From contig OZ024743.1 of the NCBI GenBank assembly GCA_964016885.1, positions 33,852,001 through 33,916,000 on the forward strand: a stretch of DNA of 64,000 bases. Reading direction: 5' to 3'. Numbering within the stretch: position 1 is the stretch's first letter; the number at the start of each line of letters is the position of its first letter. Source of the DNA: Eledone cirrhosa. Taxonomy: Eukaryota. Made by a program: the position numbers and the translations under genes. The notes under the pieces are model-generated. The model worked only from the letters and a program-made list of their open reading frames with translations. It was not told the origin of the DNA and made no database searches. Shown here piece by piece: positions 31,301 to 48,176 of the stretch.

Positions 31301-34300
31301 GAAACATACTCTCTAATACTGATGGCACAATAAGATGTACCCAGTACTCTTTGTAAAGTGGTTGATATTAGAAAGGACATCCAATCATAGAAACCTAGAT
31401 AGATATGGAACCTATTAGTAATACATTGTTCACCAACCAGTCTAGTTTTGGATTACTCCAATCTATCTAACTCATGCCAGCCAGATTTATTGCCAGGTTT
31501 TGGTAATCTGGGGACTTCAGTACATTGTAGGTGGGCACTCTAAATCAAGGAATGTATTTCAGGATGTGTTTTATAAACTCTGCTTACTAAATCTGTGCGT
31601 ACACCTTTAAGAAGTGTGTGTGTGTGTGTAGAATGGGGTGAGGGTAATGTGATCCAGTGCCCCCTCATCCCTTTTGCAATAGGCCATGACAGCCTGGGAA
31701 ATGATGCTAATGATTTTTTAACATTTCTTAAATACTCTTTCATGTATTTGTTCTGAAAGTGGTTATGATATTCCTTACTAAACTTGATTATACTACAATA
31801 CAGTTGCTTGTTATTATTTCATTAATTTTATTCAGAATACTGAGCAGGTGACAGCAATGTGTCGTCTTCCTAATGACCCTTACCAGTTTGGAGATACTCC
31901 TGCCAGACCCTTATCTGAAGCCCAGAAATTAAGGAAGGTCATCATGGAACTTCTGGAAACAGAGCGTGCCTATGTGAAGGTAAAATTATTTATCCTTTGA
32001 TGACCATATTTTGAATGAAATACATTCTATTTCAACTAATTAACAAAAACGTTTAAAGGATTTACTAAAATTATTAATTATTTCATTACTCAAATAGTAA
32101 CTTAACATATGATTCTTATATATGAAATTATATTGGATGGTTTCATTTCATAAAACTCAGTTTTAGCCAGGATGGTATCAAAATATTTAATATATTTTCA
32201 TGTTGTTTCAAATTTCGTAACTTGTTAAGCCTCAAATATAATCAGTTCTAACAAAGTATATACAAACGCTCCTCATCCAGCACAGAATCAAAGAGATTAG
32301 AGACAATAACAAAATTAATTATTCTCTGTCCCAATTCCCCTTATACCATATATATTTATGGATGTCTTTGTACTAGAAGAAATTGTTCATAATAGAGCCC
32401 ATTGCTAGAAAACAAATTTAATAAGACCTCTCCATTTGTATTTTCATGCCTGGTGGTCAGCGCCAACATGTGCATTGAAGTCTCCCACTAAGATATATGA
32501 CTCAGTCTTAACTACATCTAACACTGCAATGACTTCATCAAAGAAGGATTTGTATTTAGACTCCTTGTTTGGTGCATAAACTTGCACTACCCTCAGAGCT
32601 CTATCTTTCAGCCTAAGCTTCAAGGGGCAAATCCTCCCTCCTAATGGTATCCAGTCTGTAACACATTCTGACAGCCAGATGCTTGTGACTATCTCCATTC
32701 CTGCCTGTGCAGTCATTTCTGGCACCATTCTAGAATAATGGAGTTTCCATCCTCCATCCAAATCTACAGTACCAGAGCCATGGAATTATGTTGAAGAAAC
32801 TCAGACTATATCTAGCTGGTAGCATCTAGCCTCCTCCACTATTTCCTGCTCCTTATCTGTAAGGGTTGTGATATTCCAGGTCCCAATGGTTATGGTTTGC
32901 TCTTCTACTTGAGGTCTCAGAATATGCAATCTTTGTGCATCCGTCTCATGCCTCCCAGGACATGTCATAGGCCCATCACCAGTTCTTACTGCATGAGATG
33001 CCTGGTGGTGGATCAACAGAAGTCTCAAACTAGATGCTTTGTGGTATCTGTTTCAGATCTGTACATTCTGAATTGAAATTCTAACTCCTGCCACTGAAAA
33101 TACAATGTTGTTTCTTCTAAGATAATATGCCCTTTTCTCAGCAGGCTGGCCTCTTATGGGAAGAAGAAATTGGCCAAAATCATAATCATGAATATTCTCA
33201 AATATCTTTTGGCATATGTTCATGATATATTGTACCTGGCTGTAAGCAAAATTAATGATTAGAAAGGTGAATGGTTAAAAAATATATAAAGTCAATCCTT
33301 ATTGAAAGCCCCATTTTTCTGTCATTTTAACTATATACTATTTATATCTCTTTTGTGCAGGACCTCAATGTATTGATAGAGCGATATTTAAATCCTCTGA
33401 AGGCAGAGACACTCTTGACATCGGATGAGATAATGCAGTTGTTTGGTAATATCCAGGAGATTGTTCAATTTCAGGAACAGTTTCTACAAAGTTTAGAAGA
33501 AGCCGTAGAGCTAGGGGGTGACTTCTTCACCCTTGATGACCCAAAGAAATTTCGGGTAAGTAAACATAAATCACAACTTGTCAGCAAAACTAAATGTGTT
33601 AATATTTTCAGCATTGTTTTTCTTTTGGGATTTTTTTTTTTTTTACATATTTAAAAAAAAAAATTTTTTTTACTGCAACAAAGAGCAGCAATTTGTTAAA
33701 GTTATCATAACTTTCAGAAATATTGTTCATGCCGCACTCAATTCGCTTTTTGCTACTGTTTATTTTTCAGTTTTACTATTTGTTTAATAACATTTTTCAA
33801 CAAATTCACCAATCTGGGTAGACATATGTGACATAAAATAGTCAACATGGGCATTTACTGAAGAACTTAAGTGAAAAAAAAATTACAAAATATATTAGTT
33901 ATTGATTTAGTGGTTAGTGTGTTTGACTCACAATCATTAGGTCATGAGTTTGATTCCCAGTCGTATGTTGTGACCTTGAGCAAGAAACTTTATTTTATGT
34001 TGTTCCAGTTCACTCAACTGGAGAAAATTAGTTGTACCTGTAATTCAAAAGGGCCAGCCTTATAACACCCTGTGTCATGTTGAATTGTCCTTAATTTCAT
34101 GAGCAGGCTGCTCCATTGATTCTTTTCTGTGATGGGTGGGACTTACATACTTTCTGATATCTTAGACAAATTGACACAGAATTTGTGAGCAGTGTTTAAG
34201 CTCCACAAACAATTTTAGTAAGTAAACCTTTATGATAATTCCATCTTTTATGTATTATGCTACTGGAACAGGAGTCCGTAACAGCTTTTAGAAAAATCTA

Positions 34301-37300
34301 TATAGATATTTTTAATTGAAGGTTAGTGAAAAAAATTCATCAAAATCTTCTCCATCTGAGTCTAGCTTGTTAAATGGTGATCTCAGTTGACTCATCTGAT
34401 TAGTCATAGTTCTATATTTGCAGTGTTCATAGCGATTACTTAAATATATTATAGACTGTTAAAATGTGAACATTGTTTATGGTTCATACTTCTACAAAAT
34501 ATGAATACTTCAGAAAAATATAAATAAAATGATTCAAGTTTCAAAGATTGTTGCTATTATTATAATATAATTTAGTCTATACTTTATCATAAGTAGGTTT
34601 ATGTTTATTCTTTTAATTTTGGCATTAAATCTCCTAAATTTCTCTTTTCCTGTTCCTCTTACTTGATAGTTTTTTCTTCCCCTTTTTTAAGACATAATTT
34701 TAATTTGGCCTAACCAGTGTGCTTAAAAAGACGAATTCATTAATAATTTGTTACCAGAGTATTATATTATTTAATCTACAACATCAACAAGCATTTTAAG
34801 GACATTTTCCTCATTGAAGCAGGATTTAGCCTTGTGCATCCCATGACATGGGATCCTCTTTGAGACAATATTTTACAGCTAGAAGTTTTTCCTGACCAAA
34901 CCTTTTAGTTACCTCTTACAACATGGTGTACCTATTGAAAACTGAATACACATATAATATCACTTTAATCTATTTGAATAAAAAATGTCTACAAAAAACA
35001 TTCTATTTATTCAATAACTGAAAAGTATTTTTAAAAAAGTAAAAGGTACAGCCAATCTTACAAAGAACGATAATTTAATTATAGACAATATTGAATTGTC
35101 TACCTTGAAAGACTATCTACTGTAGACATATCTGCTAACATCAATTATGTGATTATGTTAGTATTTGTTATTTTCCAAAACTTATTATAGTCACTGAACT
35201 GACTAAAAGGTATTTTATGTGGCTGAAAATGCTATTTTCTTTCCAAGCTAAAGAGTAAGAGATCTTTATATGATTTCAGAACTTGCATATAATAATTGTT
35301 TCTACTTTTGGCACAAAGCCAGTAATTACCCAGTACATTACTGGTACTTTATTTTATCGATTCCGTAAGGATGAAAGGCAAAGTTGACCTCAGCGAGATT
35401 TGAACTCAGAATGGAAAGGGCCATAACTCTATGCGTCAAAGCATGGTGTCTGACCCTCTACCCATACTGCCAATCCACCACCCATATAATAATGAATAAC
35501 TCCTCTTTCACCAATAATGTTTTAACCAGGTAAACTTCAATATATTATATAAAGAGACAACACACTGCAGAAGTGGAAGCTATTTTCAACTCTTAATACT
35601 ACCATGTTTATAAATAAGATTAAATTTTAGATCTTTCAAAATGCTATCTGTAGATAATAAGAGGTCTTCTCTCATAATATGTTCACTTAGTAAATGATTA
35701 GTTTTTAAAATGAAGATTGCTTTAATTTTTCCATTTTGCTATTTTCATTCATATCTCACCAAATCTCTTAATTCTTCATCATAATGGCTGTATGACCTTA
35801 TTTTAAAAGCTATGAGCTGTTTTTATACGCATAGTATTGTAATTTTCAATTTTAAAAAAGAAATATCTAGACCAATTTCTATATAGAATAAGAAAGTTCC
35901 ATAGGATGTAGTAAAGTTCACTCTCAACAGAAGTGAATAATTTTTATTGAGTAAAAGTTGATTATTGTTTAAGAACTAAATGTGTTCTAAGTGTAATCTC
36001 CACATATACTTACCTAAAGACTTAAAAAGATATCTGTCAAATGTTACTGATAACTATCACAATTCTCCAAATGAACACAAAAATACTTATATGTAGGGTA
36101 ATGTTTTTCAAACTGGAGAGAATAACATAAGAAAGTTATTTCAGCTCTAATTAAAGTAAGATATGTTACACACTCTAATCAGAAATACTATTATTGTTGA
36201 TCAATGAGCTGCGAAATAAGTTAGTCAACCTCGTAATTTATTTATCTGCTGTTCTTAGCTACTTCTTTCTAATCAACAAAAAACATAAATCACGGATCTT
36301 AAAATATTTCAGACCATTTGACCTTTCATGTAATCCTTGACCCTCATAGACCCTAGACATATACAAAAATAAACAAGTAAATAAATAAACCAGTAAACAG
36401 GGTATAAAGTAAATAGACAATAAAACTAATTATTTATAAATCAGAAACTTTTATAAATAAGTTGCATTTTATTGTATTATTTTATGTATTTTTGTTTCTT
36501 ATACAAATGTCAAGCTTTTGTCCAAAAGTTCAGTCAACACTCTTGGTAGTCATATCAAACTCTCGGGGTCAATATCATCAATGTTAGGGACTAGTGACTT
36601 AAATGATCCCTAATATTAGCTGTTTAAATTATTAATGAATAATTATTAAATAATACTGGAAAAGGTATTTTATTTTTATAAGGTTCTATACTTTTTTAAA
36701 AGCAGTAGTCCTGGTGTCACGACAAAGAACATCCTGTCCACTCTGTAAGGTAGTAGTGCCAGAGTCAATATAAAATGTTCGCAGTGCATGTTGTAAAGTA
36801 GTTTTTGTTTGGAAGGGCATCCAGCCATAGAAACCAAGCTAGAAGCATATGTGAGCAAGATGTAGTCACCCGATCCATCTTGCCTCAGTATGTGATAGCC
36901 TGCCTAACACATGCGAGCATGAAAAATAGACATTAAATAGTGATGATGATAATATCTACATTGTACACTAATAAGATCAATATCTTTATCTTCATAATTT
37001 TGGACATTCTAGAATAGTACTTTAATTTGGTGTATAATATAGTAGATTTATATTTTTTAAGACTGCATCAGATATGTAGACATCTTTTAAAATATGTAAC
37101 AATTAAAATGAAATGATTCAAAGGCATTTATTGTGTATAGTTTTTTTTTTTTTATTAATAATTTGGGGAGTGGGTGGGGGAAAGGCAATTACCATGAAAT
37201 TTTATTTTTTCAAGGTCTCTGATACTGGTGGGAGGGAGTAAGTTATCTTGGCCACAATACTTGCCAAGTGGTCTTGTTAAACTGAGCAGCAGATTAAGTC

Positions 37301-40300
37301 TACCATCCAAAAGAACATAGCAAATAATATTTATGTGCTCAAAAGAATGCAATAAATAACATTACTACAGCAAACACATGGATTCTCAGTGGAATGAGTT
37401 TATCTGTCACACTAAATGTTCTTAATGAGCAATTCCTCTCATTCTATTCACTAATATTTAAGTTTTGCCTATGTTGATGCCGAAATGAAAGAAAGTCATT
37501 TTCATTTTTGCTCTTTATTTGCTTTTTTCATTTATATTCTGGGTTGATTTAGTCTGTGTTTCCTTCATTCTTAATTTTACCTCATTGATCAAATTGTTTT
37601 TATTTTTAAAAAGATAAAACTGTTCTACATTGTTCATTCATTATTTTTTTTCTGCTGTGTGTTTGTCCTACTAGGATGAAGAACTCAGGGTATGTACTAA
37701 CATTATTAACTGTTGCGTGAAAACAGTGACATTCGCATGGATTTTATTCTTTGTTTATCATTTTATTCTTTACCTCACTTATTAACCTCATGTGAAACCC
37801 ATCATTGACAGATTATTTTTCTCTGCTTGTTTGCGGCTACATTTTTAAGAACTGTCTTTCTAGCAATGTACTGCGCTGAGATTGTTTTTTTACTGCTGTG
37901 ACTACTGTTGTGGCTGCCATGTTTAGTGTACTACTATTAACATATATTATCAACAATTAGTTAGAACACTTCTTATTTTGAAGTATCTTCTATATTAAAT
38001 ATGTACGTATACAGAGAGAAATATTCACCTTTTTATCTCTTCTCACCTCTCTGATTGTACATATTTTTTTCATATATCAACCAGATTTCTTTTCATCAAA
38101 ATGCTTTGTATTTGTTAGAAATATGTTTGTGTGTCTTTTTTTTTATCATAAAAAATTATAGAATAGTTGTTTTCATTTTATCATTGTGGTGTCTAAGCAT
38201 TTTTTATTAAGATTTTTTTTCCTAAATAATAACTTTAAGATTTTGCCCTTAAAGTTAGTTTTCATTTATAATTTTTGCCTTTTTAATGCTAAATGTTTAC
38301 CATTTATAGATGCCATTTATATCCATTAATTAATGTAATAGATTCAGCTTCGAAAATTATAGAAATTAACCAATAGAAGATGAGATTATATTTTTGGCTG
38401 ACCATATAAACAATAGTCACTTGTATTAAATTTTGTCTTTAGTCTAGAGGCTTATTAGATTGAAGCTTATCCCATCATGTTCATGATTGTAGGTTTGTAG
38501 GTTTCATTCTTAGACTGGGTGGTGTGTTGCGTCCTTAAGCATGGCACTTCATTTCACTTTTCTCCAGTCCATTCAGTTGAGACAATGAGCCCTGGCAGCA
38601 GATGGGGATTAACCTTGTGATGGACTGGCATTCTATCCAAGAGTGTGTCTTGTACTCTCAGTTACTTAATATCAATAAACTGAGATAAACTGATAAATAT
38701 TTGGCCTAGTCAGCCTCTAGGCTTGAGACAAACTTTAAAAGATAATTTATGTAGTACTTCAAATCTTAAGCTACTGCTTTTAGAAAACTAACATTTAGAA
38801 AACTAACATTTAATAGTTATAAATAATAATTGAGTTTTTAATATTTTCAATTACAGTTTAAAGCACAATTATTGCTACAGTGTTGGTCTTAATAACATAG
38901 CATTAACAAAGTCTTATATTAGTTTTTAGTTTTTTCCATAAAATTTAACCATTTCTTTTAAAATCATTTTGACAAAAATATCAAAAATTTGGATGGATTT
39001 AGTAATATTGTTTGGAAAATTATTTAATAATTATTCTTAAATATAATTATGATGGAAAGTTTTTAGTCAAAGATAAATATTTTAAAACAAACAGTTTTGT
39101 ATCATAGAACTGGGGGCAGTTTCAGGAAGTATGGTATCAAAACGGTTAAATTATAGTAAATTTACATTTTCAGCTATTTAACTGAACAAGAAAAAAATTT
39201 CTCATCTAGAGAAAGTCATTCTGAAGAAACAGTTTCTAGTTTGCTACATGCTTAGTATGTTATTGTATTAAACAACTGAATTAATTACAAATATAGGTAA
39301 TCGTTTTAGATGTATAAATATATTGACAAGCATGGGCATTTGATGAAATTTATAGTTAGTAAATTTCTTACAACAATAAAAAGCTTTTCTATAACATAGA
39401 ATTAATGTGAAAGGATTAACACTAACTAAAATATTAGAACTACTAATCTCAAACTAATAATGTTTTTATTTTTTTACCAGGAAATATTAATGTTGCATTA
39501 GATTCTTAAGATTATTCTTTTTCTTGATCATTTCATTTAATATCATGCAGTCTTTATTTTATAGGACCATCAAGGTGTGTTGTTACAGTGTTTAACATAG
39601 TATTTATAAATTAAAAAGACAGTTATAAGGCTAGATGACATTTCTACTACAATATTATTAAAAAAATAGAACATCAAAGTTTCAAAGGTGCTGCTACTGG
39701 GAAGTGTCATAAGGAGATGAATTCAACAATCTGCAGCAAAGCCTGAGGCTTGTAGTAACTAAGTAGCAGAATAGTCATTAGACAAAATAAAAAAAAACGT
39801 CTATTTGTTTTCATTAGATCACCTGCCAATATTGTTTAAAAAATTGATCAACTAAGTTTGTTGGAGTTATCTCCCTTGTTTGTGTGATTATTTTTTGATT
39901 TTTAAAAAAATGCTTAACATTCCTAGGAGGAGATTTTGTCTACTACTTGCTTTCACAATCTCAGTTAATCAAAGTGTATCAAGTCACTATATTACATATG
40001 TGAGACCCTATCATTATTGGTTCTCTACTATGGCGGTGGATTGGCAGTATCGGTGGAGGGTCGGACGCCATGCTTTCCAGCATAGTTACGTCCCTTTACG
40101 ATCTGAGTTCAAATCCCGCCGAGGTTGACTTTGCCTTTCATCCTTATGGGGTCGATAAAATAAAGTACCAGTAATGCACTGGGTAATTGCTGGCCTTGTG
40201 CCTAAAGTAGAAACAATTATTGGTTCTCTACTATGTGAGAGACAGGATATACATTGCTAAAATTTTAAAAGTCTATGATTTGGATTCTATTCCTTGTCAG

Positions 40301-43300
40301 AATTAGTTTGTTTAATTCAGTATTGCTTTTAAAGAATACATAGTTGCCACAGATTCCAACTCCTCACATGATATCATTATATAATTATCACTATCATTAT
40401 TCATATACTGATGAATTCAGAATTTGTTTTCAGAATTCTCATACTATAAAACATTTTCTGAAGAAGTTTCCATTAGCTCTCATCTTCATATGACTGAGTG
40501 ACCACCACGTGTTTCATTATGATAGTGTATTTAAGGGACCAAATATAGCATTACTGATAATGAAAACAATATGAAATGATGGAGTATTCGTCAAAATAAA
40601 GCTTGATTCGCATTTAAGAATCACCTGATGATAATACAATTCACACTAAAGAAAACAAATTGTCATCATTTATTACCCTAACTGTAAATATATATATATC
40701 ACTTTATCAAAGTTTCAGTTCCTTTCATATTTAATACATGCGGTGCTATTCTGTAAAATTATGTATTATACATAAAAGGAGTTGTTTAACAGTGACATAA
40801 GGAACCTCAATTACTTTGCAAAAGTGTTAACGATGACAAACATACATACACACACTCACTCGCACATTGAAAGTCTATTATGTAATCTACATGTTTTATA
40901 GGCCAGAGAAATTTATGAAATTAAGTGAACCATAACAGGTTGAACATTACTTATGAAGGGGATATTTCAGGGTGACAAACTCATCAAGAACATTAGAGCT
41001 ATTTATACTCTGAGCTTGTTTTATATTTTAAACAAACGTTTATAGTGATTATACATTTGAGTTACCCTGTACCAGGCAACATAATGTCATAGCAGTATAC
41101 TTGCTATATTCAAATGGTTTTGTGGTTGATATATTAAAGTCATTATATACTATTTCAATGCATTAACACCCTTGGCTCATTTTTGTTAAGTTTCCACAAC
41201 TAGGAATGAATTTTATGTCTTCTTAAACACAAGTTTACATCTACATAGAGATTTAATGTATATTCTTCCTGTGGCTGAAAATTGGATGATCTCTTTAAGA
41301 TCATGAACTTTTTGTTTCATCAAGATCATAATCCATGAACCTCATAACCATTATTTTGCCAATATACCAGATTGATACCAAAAGGATTAAACTTTTTATA
41401 TTTCTGTATGTGGTATATAAGTTGATTCCCGAATGTGACTATAAATTCTTGAGACTATATGTATTTATACTTAAATATTTATGTAGTTCTAAAATTAACT
41501 ATCAATAAACAGTTACACACATTTACACACAAACAGTTATAATTCACATATCTACATCAAAGAATATAAACGACATGAACATTGTCTCTTCAGTAAAATA
41601 TCATTTTTACAGAAGATGAGCATTTATATTAACATATCTCATCTAAACAACATTGAGGAAGTCTAGTAAGTTAAAACTCTCATTACCATATTTCTAATAA
41701 AATACATTCTATTTCAATTAATTAATTACAAATATTGAGGAATTTACTAAAATTATTAATTATTTCCTGTTTAAGATATTAACTTAACACACGGTTCAGA
41801 TTACCATATATACTTGAATATAAACTGAGAAATGTGTACCAGAAAAAAAAAAAAAATCAATTGTAAAATGGAGGTCAGCTTATATATATCGGTCAATAGT
41901 TTACCGATTTTCACCAACTTCAAACTCTACTTAAATGAGGTGCTAGAATTTCTGAAGTGATTATTTTTACAAAGAAATTGAAAATAATGTGTTTTTAATT
42001 AGTCTGTGAATTTTTTTGCACAAGCTTCTATTAACCTATTGTACAATATATGTGTATTAAGTTCACTGTATAAAACTTGATACACTTTTACTATTACACT
42101 TGTTTCACATTCGAAGTGAAATTATTTTTCTATGGTTTTTTGATGTGTCTTGAACAAGTCTAGGAACCAAAACTATTGAAAATTATTCATTTGTTAGTTA
42201 ACTGTGGTGTTGGGGGAACCCATAGAGTTCTCTGGTTTGGAGATGAATATTGCACCAGCTTCACTCACTTTGGAGGTGAATATTACACCGGTTTCACTTT
42301 GGAGGTGAATATTATACCGGGTTTCACTTTGGAGGTGAATATTACACCGATTTCACTTTGGAGGTGAATATTATACCGGTTTCACTTTGGAGGTGAATAT
42401 TACACCAGTTTCACTTTGAAGGTGAATATTACACCGGTTTCACTTTGGAGGTGAATATTACATTGGTTTCACTTTGGAGGTGAATATTACACCGGTTTCA
42501 CTTTGAAGGTGAATATTACACCTGTTTCACTTTGAAGGTGAATAATACACCGGTTTCACTTCATGCTGGCACGAGACGGATGCCATTGTAAAAATCTATG
42601 TAAAGTTTTAATACTTGTATGATGTTAAATGGTTTCCGGGTTTTTTAAGGCACACATTTCATATGATATGTTAAATCATGTCTTGCATTTCAAAGATGGC
42701 ATTATTATTGTCTGTTAAAAGTAAAAGGCAAAGTACTCCCAGCATGTGAGTGTCTAGAAATAAACAAAAATTCAAGAAATTCAAGAAACTTGTTGAAATT
42801 TTATAAAACAGGTGAAATGTTAAAAACCATTATGTAATGGAGTTGTGAAACAAAAACTATACTCTAAATGATACTTAAAACATTCGAAATATCAAAATAT
42901 TAAAACTTCATAAATATATTCTCTATTCATGAGGATTTCAAAACCTCACTGTCCAAGCATATTGTGTTGATTAGCTGCCTCAGCTTATACATGGGGTTTG
43001 GATTTTGCCCATTTCTCAGACATAAAATAGGGTCTGCTTATATTCGAGTATATATTGTATTTTGGAAGATTTTAATTTCAATAGGAACCCTTTAACCCTT
43101 TAGTATTTAAACCGGCCATATCCGGCCAGAACTCTCACCTCTTTCAGTTCAAACTGGCCATTCATACTGATGTTAAGGTATTGTTCTCAAAATAAACAAT
43201 ATCAAAATCTCATAGATTCAATATTATGTGAGATAATATGCAAGATAAAGCCTTTACCACAAAAATAGAGTAATGTAAATGCTAAAGGTTAAATTGGTGG

Positions 43301-44217: not shown

Positions 44218-47200
44218 GTATATATATATATATCATATAGAAATGACATTTACAGGACTTGAACAATGTCATTTATTTGAAATGATCAAGAAAGTCTTTT
44301 CTAATGATTTCAAAAAAATGAAACAATTCTAGCCCCGTAGAAATCATTTTTTTATGAAATAAATCTGTATACTCTCTACTAAGGTATTGAGTACCTTATT
44401 TAACTGTGGTCTTTTTCCATTCCTCTTGGGAGTACTATTCTTGATCACACACTCACATCTATATCTATTCTCTTAGATACAATGATTGAAATGTAGGAAG
44501 AAATTTTAAATTCTGTTTATAATTTAGAAAACTGATAAACATTTGTTTAATATTTCAGAGAAATTACATACAGTTCTGTTGAATTAATTTAGGCTGTAGC
44601 AAAATATATGCATGACTAAACATACTATGTGATGGTATTTCGGGCTTGGTAGCAACTAGAAGATGCTTGCAATTAATTTTAAAACCATAAAAATAGGTTT
44701 ATACAAAGGTTTCTGCTAAACTGGTTACTAATACTTACAAATATAAAATTTTCTTTGAAATGTATCAACATATTAAAAATGTATTTTGTATGTATGTGTA
44801 TGCACTAGCATGTGTATATGTCTGTCTGTGTATATGTCTGTCTGTGTATATGTGTGTGTGATCAGTTCATACAGCAGTACCTATATTTGAAATTGACTCA
44901 ATTCAAAACATCTCTTGAAAAAAAATTAAGATTATTTCAGTAAAATATTACACATTCATTGTAAAAAAATATATATTTTTTATTTTTCATGCTTATTGTC
45001 TAGAAAATTATCAGTTAATTTGAAGATAATATGAAATAGATTTAAGTAGAATATCCTAAAGATTTATGTATTGCAAACATAAATAACAATTCTTTGTTTT
45101 TTTTTTATTTGTAAGTTTCCTGAACTCTTGTAACATATATTTTTTATAATCTGATAAAGCTTATGTAATGTATTTGGCAGTATGTCCATAAACACACTCT
45201 TACATATACTTGCATTTAACATTATTATTATCTAATATAATAACAAATTTAAAAAAGTATTTTGGGTGGAAAATTCAATCCATTTGAAATATTGACATTT
45301 CAATTATAGAGGAGAATGTTTAAGAGAAATATTAAGTATATTTTTATGGTCACCTAACATTTGGACAGAAACAATTTGATTATCTATATTTTTAATGTAT
45401 TTGAATGAATTTATGAAGAATTTGGAAGTATTTACTAAAATTATTAACTATTTCATAATATTTGAAGGTTTAAATAGAATTTCTTTAAAATGGGTGGTTT
45501 TGTTTCATAGAAACAGGGACAATTTCAGGTAGTTTGATACCAAAAGGATTACATCTCTAAAAATAACTCTGAAAGTGAATCCTTAAATAATGATATTAGA
45601 GGAAAGTTTATCACTGTTCACTGATCAAAATGTATTGATCTCCAAACTGACTAATTACTCCAAACGACTAAACATTATATTAAGGACATGTGGACATAGC
45701 CTGGACAAATGATTAAGAAGTTCACTTTACAATTATATGGCCTTGAGTTCAATCCCACTGCATAGCATTTTGGGCAAATGTCATTTACCATAGCCTCAGG
45801 CTGACCCAAGCCTTGTGAGTAATATTGGGTAGGTGGAGGTTGTTTGGAAGCCTTTTAGATGGACTGTACCTGTAATTCAGAGGGTTAGCCTTGTTACATA
45901 CTGTATCATACTGAATCTTAATTTAAGGGTACACATGACTGCGGAATGCTTGGTCACTTGAATGTTAATTCCTTGAGCAGGTTATCCCATTGATCAAACA
46001 ACTCATTGTCAAAATAAAGATCCATTCCATTACTGAGATAGTGTGTTTATAAGGAACAGTATCAATACGGACTTTCTAAATATTCCTCTCACATGTTTAA
46101 CTATCTCATTGTTCAATCTCATTTTCTTTTCTCTCTGTCCTCTACTTCTCTTTTTTTTCCCTCCTCTCTTTTTCCACAACTGTTATTCTTTTAGTTTCAA
46201 AATAGCATACTAAAAATAAAAATAAAAATCAATATGGTCAGTATAATAACTTCCTCTAAATTAATTAACTACTATTTAGAACTTCAGACATTGCAGTATT
46301 TTGCTCTAAGAATTAGAAAAAAATTACCTTTGGTTTTCAGATCACAAGGCAAGTTTTGAAAACCCATCAATTTACTGTCCATCAATTATATTGTATGATT
46401 GAAAAAAATATTGACAATGCAACAAAGGCTATTTGATTAGCAGAAAGGAACTGATGTCAAAGTTTTTCCATAATCACGATCTATTGTCTATATTGAATTG
46501 ATGATTATTTACACCTTAACTACATTTTCATAAGCTGTGGAAAAGATAGGTCTCTGCTAACTACTTTAAAACTCCCTATCATGTCTTCAAAGAGGATTCA
46601 TTTGGATTTCATATTTTCATTTGAATGTTAGTTAATTAATTACTGTTTATACTTGAATATAAGCTGAGGAGTAAGTGACTCTAAAAAAATAGTTGGAGAA
46701 AAAAAAAGAATTCAGATCAACTTATTTTTGAACATATTTGGTTATTGATTATTCATGATTATGATAAAGGCAGGAAAATGCCTGCTTAGGATTCTAGGTA
46801 TCTCCAAGTGAGTTGCATTCATTTTCTGGTGTCATCACCATCATCAATTGTTATAGAATCATAAACAAATAGTTTTCTCTCATGAGTCATATTGAGTGTA
46901 ACATCATCAGGTACCTTTTCTCACCCAAAACTCACACTTGCACAATATATATATAAGTACTTACACACAATTCAATTACACAAAATATGTCATGCACATA
47001 AACATCAGTTTGGTGTTAGTCATTTGTCATTTCATTTATCTAAAACATATATCAAACAATATTCTACAAAATTGAGAAACATTTTGAAATGTATGACCTT
47101 TGTTTTTGTATTACAGCGTGTTCTGTTTTCTCTGGGTGGCTCTTTTCTGTATTATGCCAACCATTTCAAGGTGTACAGTTCCTTCTGTGCTAGTCATTCA

Positions 47201-48176
47201 AGGTCGCAAAAGATCCTCAACCCAGGTAAGTGATAGAAAATGTGAGGTAATAGGCTCTGTGTGTTTGTCCATTTTATATACATACACACATATATATATA
47301 TGTATATAAAGATTACAAACACATAGACACACACATACTCACACACACATGCATACACACACACACACCCACACATAAGAACAACATTAAAAAAGATGCT
47401 GATATTACATAAATTGTTTATTCATTATGATTATTTCAACGGTTCCTTTATGAAATTCACAATGTAACGTATTCATTTGTTATTGGTATGGGAATGGTAT
47501 CTTCAGATGAAAATCCAATTACATGATATGTCGCAGGCAAAAAAATAATTTTTCTTCTTGCTTGCCTGGCAGATATATGTATATATATATATCCACACTG
47601 TAAACGTGGTTGGTGTTAGGAAGGGCATCCAGCCATAGAAAACCCGCCAGACAGTCCTATACGAGCAAGATAACCAATCTTGCCTCAAGTGGGAAAACTC
47701 CCGTCCAAACCCATGCAAGCGTGGAAGATGGACGTTAAACGATGATGATGATATATAATTAGGTTTGTTGGTTCACCACTGGATAGAACTGGTCATTCCG
47801 TATAGTCAACCTCGATGTAATATTATGGAGAGCACTCGACGTAATGCAACTCACCCATCTTCGTTTGTGTTGTTGGTGGTGCAAGTACGGAGTTAATTAT
47901 TATAAAATAAAAGGAGATTGGACTGGTGTAATAATTCCTTACAGGTTTATTATACTATGAACATTTCAATGACCGAGTTCAGTATAAATCCGGTGACATC
48001 ATCAGGTATTCGAAATTTAACAAAGGAATATAATAGACAAAATCCATGGAGCTGAAAAGCAGAGACAGGAAGGCGGCCGAATAATTAGCAGCTTCTAGCC
48101 CGGTCAGCCAGCCGGTCACTGAAATGATCATAGTATAATAAACCTTTTAAGGAATTACACCAGTCCAGCCTCCTGT

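What the first reader, a model, noticed from the sequence alone, without database searches (positions are those of the whole stretch)
37614..37740. Hidden 15-nt microexon (DEELR) in the DH domain with neural-microexon-type cis elements
Seen: in the 13.5-kb intron between DH exons, an AG-free stretch of about 59 nt with a polypyrimidine tract and TGC at 37653-37655 ends in CTAG. It is followed by GATGAAGAACTCAGG and a strong GTATGT donor, then ACTAAC (37696-37701) and GCATG (37735-37739). The phase is 0-0, so inclusion gives ...[20 protein letters not shown] with no frameshift. I recognise no TE in the surrounding 1 kb or so, unlike the rest of the intron. Established: UGC just upstream of the 3' splice site marks SRRM3/4 (eMIC)-dependent neural microexons; ACUAAC and GCAUG are QKI/How and Rbfox motifs; GEFs are frequent microexon targets. 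Inference: a neuron-specific 5-aa insert that may tune Rac GEF activity and would be missed by standard annotation.
Basis: partly seen in the sequence, partly recalled or inferred. Interest (0 to 1): 0.75.

Follow-up and report, generated by a model that had tools for sequence, protein, structure and literature searches.

The report
Ancient microexon in octopus Rac activator
A 15-letter optional exon in an octopus still life/TIAM gene adds five amino acids at the same spot where mussels, chitons and annelid worms also carry a short insert; relatives' gene annotations already list it, and it likely retunes the protein in nerve or muscle cells from outside the catalytic surface.

Summary
Confirmed: an AG/GT-bounded, in-frame 15-nt exon (37675-37689, DEELR) in the DH domain of an octopod still life (sif/TIAM) gene. 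It is not hidden. RefSeq isoforms of Octopus sinensis (12 of 13 seen) and O. bimaculoides (2 of 2) include it, and one O. sinensis isoform skips it. A 370-nt block around it is as conserved across related species as coding sequence. None was seen in 131 arthropod-type rows or in named deuterostomes. AlphaFold models suggest the insert replaces the first turn of DH helix 3 (PKKFR to DEELR), beside the back face rather than the Rac surface. Neuron specificity is unproven. The genome encodes an eMIC-type domain and the UGC is present, but UGC is common by chance, and the downstream QKI-plus-Rbfox motifs fit muscle microexons equally well. No junction read was seen for this species, and no paper on this exon was found. 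Verdict: a real, old, annotated but apparently unstudied microexon of a known kind.

The parts
33361..33555 (+). Upstream constitutive DH exon (195 nt, ends ...KKFR, phase 0)
   Evidence: Pfam RhoGEF; 100% match to cephalopod sif proteins
37565..37932 (+). Conserved intronic block around the microexon, single copy in the genome
   Evidence: 9-10 substitutions in 368-384 nt in four runs of other organisms, 15 in 421 nt in two more; single match in G000; no stable RNA fold, z 0.52
37614..37672 (+). AG-free zone (59 nt) with T-rich pyrimidine tract
   Evidence: constitutive acceptors of the gene range 22-164 nt
37653..37655 (+). TGC (UGC) at -22 to -20, candidate eMIC/SRRM element
   Evidence: unchanged in four other organisms; 20% background rate
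37675..37689 (+). 15-nt microexon, DEELR, AG/GT bounded, phase 0-0
   Evidence: included in 21 and skipped in 5 cephalopod proteins spanning the junction; no substitution in four other organisms
37690..37695 (+). 5' splice site GTATGT
   Evidence: strength not scored
37695..37710 (+). TACTAAC plus TAAC half-site: bipartite QKI/STAR-type element next to the donor
   Evidence: consensus ACTAAY-N1-20-TAAY as given in bioRxiv 2025.09.04.674271; bipartite form in 3 of 226 60-nt intron windows; ACTAAY at 0 of 10 constitutive donors
37735..37739 (+). GCATG, Rbfox-type core (preceded by C, not T)
   Evidence: unchanged in four other organisms
47117..47225 (+). Downstream constitutive DH exon (starts RVLFSLGG)

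Best explanation
This is an in-frame, optional 15-nt microexon in the DH domain of the octopod still life/TIAM Rac-GEF gene, with an insert at the same junction in other molluscs and in annelids, and it is likely a tissue-regulated (nerve and/or muscle) switch that is predicted to replace the first turn of DH helix 3 outside the Rac-binding surface. Shown: the exon, both forms in annotated isoforms of relatives, coding-level conservation of 370 nt around it, and the same-site inserts. Predicted: DEELR takes the register of PKKFR, with D capping the helix, L in place of F and two acids in place of two lysines, which pushes five residues into the preceding loop. Inferred: one origin before molluscs and annelids split, with loss or non-annotation in some groups; inclusion promoted by eMIC-type SRRM234 at the UGC together with QKI/How and Rbfox downstream; an indirect effect on activity through the back face (dimer, autoinhibition or partner contacts), leaving exchange chemistry intact.
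For: Exon and motifs. Both forms within a species or genus (included of spanning rows): O. sinensis 12 of 13, Pecten maximus 9 of 12, Ostrea 4 of 7, Saccostrea 5 of 7, Mytilus 6 of 14, Haliotis 12 of 15, Patella 6 of 12, Liolophura 1 of 2, Owenia 2 of 5. Inserts DEELR, DLELR, DTCLA, DEDVR, ENLPDVR, EDRLR, plus DEDLR in Helobdella and DEGLA in an unnamed sister record; all begin with D/E and have L/V at the second-last place, where skipped forms mostly have F/Y. Flank conservation: 9 of 368 versus 5 of 203 in the coding exon (P=1.0) and 40 of 271 in the next intron block (P=1e-8) for run X15. Models: skipped form helix 87-106 starts at the P of PKKFR; included form has short helix 87-90, a break at R91-D92, then helix 93-111; skipped model matches 1FOE TIAM1-Rac1, TM 0.85. 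PMC2892021 (passages): alpha1, alpha5, parts of alpha3 and alpha6 bind the GTPase; alpha2 is the opposite side and forms the Tiam dimer interface. SRRM_C exon above cut-off in this genome.
Against: No tissue-labelled RNA was available, and no junction read of the included form was seen in this window's species. The one long contig of the best holders' species label stops matching at 33555, as a skipped form would. UGC has a 20% background; no CUAAY branch point or UCUC tract upstream, though PMC8797185 lists both for fly eMIC exons. Motif positions are not significantly more conserved than the block (0 of 16 variable sites in 42 nt, P=0.14). Local model confidence is modest (pLDDT 58 and 80 around the insert) and no coordinates or distances to Rac were available. 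No insert in listed isoforms of Aplysia (0 of 3), Biomphalaria/Bulinus (0 of 12), Pomacea (0 of 5), Littorina (0 of 3), Gigantopelta (0 of 3), Mercenaria (0 of 5), Ruditapes (0 of 2), Lineus (0 of 8) or Tubulanus (0 of 3), so a single origin needs several losses or missed annotations. Non-cephalopod inserts were seen only as proteins, not as exons in DNA. Isoform counts are not inclusion levels.
Confidence: 0.6

Rival explanations
1. Strictly neuron-specific, eMIC (SRRM234)-dependent microexon.
For: UGC at -22 to -20 and a 59-nt AG-free zone; SRRM_C exon in the genome; PMC8797185 (passages) states that eMIC drives neural microexons across bilaterians; deeply conserved short exons tend to be neural (bioRxiv 2026.09.05.749416, passages).
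Against: UGC in 92 of 452 background windows; no upstream CUAAY. Insert absent from the 3 Aplysia isoforms seen but present in pteriomorph bivalves; that Aplysia RNA data are nerve-rich and bivalve data are not is recalled, not checked.
Confidence: 0.4
2. Mainly a muscle (or muscle plus glia) exon switched on by QKI/How and Rbfox binding downstream; the UGC is incidental.
For: Bipartite QKI element at donor +6 to +21, TACTAAC only twice in 184 kb, and GCATG at +46. The same pair downstream promotes the striated-muscle Snap23 microexon (PMC12064062, passages); QKI binds near weak donors in heart (bioRxiv 2025.09.04.674271, passages).
Against: The same paper says QKI and RBFOX2 also control brain microexons. 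MBNL-type YGCY is not enriched (109 of 755 windows). No tissue data.
Confidence: 0.25
3. The inserts arose several times independently in one permissive intron (recurrent exon gain) and are not one ancestral exon.
For: Patchy presence; Haliotis DTCLA and the 7-residue Patella insert differ; divergent unnamed relatives carry 15-28 extra residues in this loop; recurrent neural exon gain is reported as common.
Against: Same length in most lineages and close sequences across phyla: octopus DEELR, leech DEDLR, chiton DEDVR, bivalve DLELR.
Confidence: 0.2
4. The insert changes Rac binding or GTPase choice directly.
For: It lies inside the catalytic DH domain, and parts of alpha3 are described as touching the GTPase.
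Against: It sits at the N-terminal start of helix 3, 1FOE chain position 93|94, about 70 residues before the QxxxK stretch that I match by spacing to the catalytic Q1191/K1195 of PMC2989435. In the intersectin dimer surface, said to overlap the Cdc42 surface highly, it is the C-terminal part of alpha3 that is named.
Confidence: 0.12
5. Chance splice-like sequence or non-functional splicing noise.
For: No included-form junction seen in this species; each motif alone is common.
Against: Included in annotated and transcript-assembled proteins of several cephalopods 84-96% apart in identity; block conserved like coding DNA.
Confidence: 0.02

Closest known systems
RefSeq Octopus still life isoforms (O. 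sinensis XP_036357052.1 X1 includes, XP_036357071.1 X18 skips; O. bimaculoides XP_052822162.1)
   Same: Identical DEELR insert at the identical junction.
   Different: Automatic annotation only; no description of the exon, its regulation or conservation was found in the library searches.
eMIC (SRRM3/4, Srrm234)-dependent neural microexons (PMC8797185; bioRxiv 2024.09.17.613571; passages and one section read)
   Same: Short, frame-preserving, long AG-free zone, UGC between pyrimidine tract and AG; regulator domain present in the genome.
   Different: No CUAAY branch point or UCUC tract upstream; tissue pattern and dependence untested; none of the 4 fly sif and 2 mouse Tiam2 rows in that paper's supplement is a microexon.
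spg/DOCK3/4 microexons in a GEF catalytic domain (bioRxiv 2026.09.05.749416, passages)
   Same: Small insert within the catalytic domain of a GEF; the mouse form is reported to change partner binding.
   Different: DHR-2 fold, convergent between insects and vertebrates; here a DH domain and inserts shared by molluscs and annelids.
Snap23 striated-muscle microexon (PMC12064062, passages)
   Same: QKI and Rbfox motifs downstream of a frame-preserving microexon.
   Different: Mammalian, 33 nt, weak GC donor, binding tested; here motifs only, with an upstream UGC in addition.
TIAM1 DH-PH, PDB 1FOE
   Same: Orthologous domain, 61% identity, TM 0.85; gap-free alignment across the junction.
   Different: The solved TIAM1 chain and the vertebrate-like representatives show the short form only.

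Membership tests
Alternatively spliced microexon | 3-27 nt with AG/GT boundaries, frame preserved | tested here: met
   15 nt, phase 0-0, no stop
Alternatively spliced microexon | Both included and skipped transcripts exist | tested here: met
   O. sinensis 12 included and 1 skipped of 13 rows; both forms in eight further genera tallied. In this window's species only a skip-like contig was seen.
Alternatively spliced microexon | Conserved flanking intron | tested here: met
eMIC/SRRM3/4-dependent neural microexon | UGC near the 3' splice site | tested here: met
   37653-37655; 20% chance rate, 1 of 12 constitutive acceptors
eMIC/SRRM3/4-dependent neural microexon | Long AG-exclusion zone and pyrimidine tract | tested here: met
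   59 nt versus median 34.5 of 12 constitutive acceptors, 2 of which are longer
eMIC/SRRM3/4-dependent neural microexon | Strong CUAAY branch point and UCUC-rich tract upstream (enriched, not obligatory) | tested here: not met
   Only CTAAY in the block is downstream at 37697; no UCUC run in 37600-37674
eMIC/SRRM3/4-dependent neural microexon | Host genome encodes an eMIC (SRRM_C) domain | tested here: met
   One exon, 29.3 and 31.8 bits versus cut-off 27; equating PF15230 with eMIC is recalled
eMIC/SRRM3/4-dependent neural microexon | Neural-specific inclusion and loss on eMIC removal | not testable with these tools
   Runs carry no tissue labels and are contigs
QKI/Rbfox-activated exon | Bipartite ACUAAY-N1-20-UAAY and (U)GCAUG downstream | tested here: met
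   37696-37710 and 37735-37739; GCAUG lacks the leading U
QKI/Rbfox-activated exon | Binding and dependence on the proteins | not testable with these tools
   Needs CLIP or knockdown
TIAM/Sif Rac-GEF | PH-CC-Ex, RBD, PDZ, DH-PH architecture | tested here: met
   Pfam on P0201; the window's exons map to its RBD-to-C-terminal part

The most novel reading that the evidence does not exclude
One of the few microexons kept across two animal phyla: a splicing switch older than the mollusc-annelid split that swaps the first helical turn of TIAM/Sif DH helix 3 from basic to acidic, resetting dimer or autoinhibitory contacts of the Rac activator in neurons, under a joint eMIC plus QKI/Rbfox code held in a near-invariant 370-nt element in octopods.
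Probability: 0.3. Interest if true: 0.62.

Novelty: new member of a known kind. Interest (0 to 1): 0.4.

Why it matters
Published comparisons find that microexon programmes are almost fully rewired between phyla (PMC8797185; only two neural exons called bilaterian-ancestral in bioRxiv 2026.09.05.749416), and they sample spiralians thinly. An optional insert shared by molluscs and annelids inside a RhoGEF catalytic domain would be a rare old target and a simple reporter for testing eMIC versus QKI/Rbfox control in cephalopods. The predicted helix-turn swap gives a concrete biochemical test. The exon itself is already in public annotation, which caps the surprise.

Tried and rejected
RNA structure in the conserved block: none beyond shuffles (z 0.52, 71 of 100 shuffles fold as well). 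Nova-type YCAY cluster downstream: looked dense in 50-nt windows but 169 of 755 243-nt windows match it, and one copy is changed in all four other organisms; dropped. MBNL-type YGCY: 109 of 755; dropped. Motif-specific conservation: not separable from the block (P=0.14). Sequencing runs: no RNA holder on record; no evidence either way. Junction letters: the lay on 33300-42200 was swamped by repeats and the loose-end rows at the exon were not shown; the stretch did not include the downstream exon. Contigs of X15, X16 and X18 match one base past the exon (G, fits inclusion) and X5 stops at the exon end (fits skipping); this is inference only. Other candidate microexons in this intron (39965-39999, 46195-46236): no insert of matching length among cephalopod proteins. 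Tree was the quick tree, not the careful one; used only to place one unnamed record beside Helobdella. No complex prediction was run: one job cannot compare both forms and would echo 1FOE. Literature: microexon+octopus+eMIC 0 papers; microexon+octopus 3 listed (13); microexon/still life/sif/Srrm234 1 fly paper, listing only (21); microexon/TIAM1/DH domain, 20 of 139 listed, none on a TIAM microexon by title or abstract start (28); microexon+mollus 25, none relevant by title (83); one search was uninformative. Two key papers recalled from memory (the 2019 eMIC origin paper, the 2014 neural microexon paper) were not held. Supplements of the 2026 preprint, which includes Octopus bimaculoides, are closed and may list this exon and its tissue pattern. 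Earlier scan findings: none.

Full report
OBSERVATION. The element is as described: 59 AG-free bases, TGC at 37653-37655, acceptor ending 37674, the 15-nt exon 37675-37689 (DEELR), donor GTATGT, ACTAAC at 37696 and GCATG at 37735. It lies in the 13.5-kb phase-0 intron between exons 33361-33555 and 47117-47225. The gene is an octopod still life/TIAM Rac-GEF: the upstream exon is 98-100% identical to cephalopod sif proteins, and the Octopus sinensis protein has the PH-CC-Ex, RBD, PDZ, DH-PH architecture. The region is single-copy in the genome. A filter for in-frame candidates with all motifs finds only this one in 184 kb of sense strand, none antisense, and 0.005 per shuffled intron; the filter was fitted after the fact. 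Singly the motifs are weak (TGC in 92 of 452 windows), except TACTAAC, found twice in 184 kb, once at donor +6.

IT IS A REAL EXON AND IT IS ANNOTATED. DEELR stands at this junction in O. bimaculoides (2 of 2 rows), O. sinensis (12 of 13; X18 skips) and seven unnamed transcript-assembled proteins about 86% identical to Octopus; two other unnamed proteins, an Argonauta model and one further model skip it. The seven and the two differ from each other by 3-6%, so they probably come from different species. Cluster listings show at most 15 members (for example 15 of 26 in the O. sinensis cluster), and isoform counts are not inclusion levels. So 'hidden from annotation' fails for relatives. For this window's species no included-form junction was seen; a contig of run X5 stops matching at the exon end, as skipping would give.

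CONSERVED DNA. Many other organisms hold part of the stretch. Contigs of four of them cover about 37565-37932 with 9-15 substitutions, none in the exon, splice sites, TGC, ACTAAC or GCATG. In run X15 the block differs at 9 of 368 places, the coding exon at 5 of 203 (P=1.0) and the next alignable intron block at 40 of 271 (P=1e-8). The whole block is conserved, so the motifs cannot be singled out (P=0.14). It has no stable fold.

DEPTH IN THE TREE. Of 515 proteins held, 362 span the junction at 50% identity or more; 63 have +5 and 6 have +7 residues. Both forms occur in Pecten, Ostrea, Saccostrea and Mytilus (DLELR), Haliotis (DTCLA), Patella (ENLPDVR), the chiton Liolophura (DEDVR) and the annelid Owenia (EDRLR). 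Helobdella has DEDLR and an unnamed sister record DEGLA. No insert was seen in 131 arthropod-type rows (nearly all named), in Branchiostoma (3), Strongylocentrotus (4), Asterias (8), Antedon (4), Glandiceps (1), vertebrate-like representatives, nemerteans (11), heterobranch and caenogastropod snails or heterodont clams. These are annotated proteins: absence may be missed annotation, and I could not inspect the non-cephalopod DNA. One origin with losses is the simpler reading given the sequence likeness; recurrent gain is not excluded.

WHAT IT DOES TO THE PROTEIN. The junction maps to 1FOE chain A 93|94 without gaps. In the model of the skipped DH domain, helix 3 starts at the P of PKKFR, five residues before the junction (mean pLDDT 86; matches 1FOE at TM 0.85). 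In the included model PKKF forms a short helix, the chain breaks at R-D, and the long helix starts at the first E of DEELR (mean pLDDT 77, locally 58-80). All inserts start with D or E and have L or V where skipped forms mostly have F or Y. I read this as a replacement first turn that keeps the hydrophobic anchor, lengthens the loop by five and, in octopus, swaps two lysines for two glutamates. PMC2892021 (passages) places the GTPase surface on alpha1, alpha5 and parts of alpha3 and alpha6, and the Tiam dimer interface on alpha2 on the opposite side. The insert follows alpha2 and lies about 70 residues before the stretch I match to the catalytic Q1191/K1195 (PMC2989435, one passage). An indirect effect through back-face contacts is therefore the likelier mechanism; no distance could be measured.

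REGULATION. The genome has one SRRM_C exon above the Pfam cut-off. The UGC and long AG-free zone fit eMIC targets as described in PMC8797185 (passages) and bioRxiv 2024.09.17.613571 (passages and section 10), but the strong upstream branch point and UCUC tract are missing. Downstream, a bipartite QKI element (consensus in bioRxiv 2025.09.04.674271, passages) and GCAUG repeat the arrangement that activates the muscle Snap23 microexon, and that paper notes both factors also act in brain (PMC12064062, passages). None of 10 constitutive donors has ACTAAY or GCATG within 60 nt. Tissue-regulated inclusion is likely; neurons versus muscle is open.

PRIOR KNOWLEDGE. No paper on this exon was found in searches (listings only). 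The fly and mouse table of PMC8797185 has 4 sif and 2 Tiam2 rows, none under 100 nt (supplement search). The 2026 preprint (passages) includes octopus, does not name sif or TIAM in its main text, and its supplements could not be seen. GEF-domain microexons are a known kind (spg/DOCK).

VERDICT. Real (about 0.97), optional and already annotated in relatives; a new member of a known kind. The added value is the mollusc-annelid spread, the near-invariant flank and a testable helix-turn swap. Interest 0.4.

Noticed in passing
L003:145-156 (upstream of the window, same gene): A second microexon, 12 nt (HAPG), AG/GTATGT bounded, optional in cephalopod isoforms; no TGC in the 80 nt upstream.
   Followed up: partly
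intron after 47225: Pecten, Lineus and Aplysia isoforms carry optional 3-5-residue inserts after ...LNP at the next junction; none seen in cephalopod proteins.
   Followed up: no
L002:1499-1645 (- strand): Exon encoding the SRRM_C domain, flanked by AG and GTATGT; the likely eMIC exon of Srrm234.
   Followed up: partly
window 35291-35482 and 40032-40221: Inverted pair of a high-copy repeat (85-88% complementary) bracketing the microexon about 4.6 kb apart; very deep in contigs. Could pair in pre-mRNA; untested.
   Followed up: no
window 42236-42561: Tandem array of a 29-nt unit, 11 copies.
   Followed up: no
proteins P0322, P0337, P0343, P0344, P0349, P0350, P0352, P0354, P0355, P0379, P0430: Divergent unnamed representatives show 15-28 extra residues in the same loop; the loop tolerates insertion.
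   Followed up: no
L011:8559-8564, L006:1103-1120, L005:5260-5289: Further in-frame microexon-like candidates from the scan; no matching insert was looked for or noticed in proteins.
   Followed up: no
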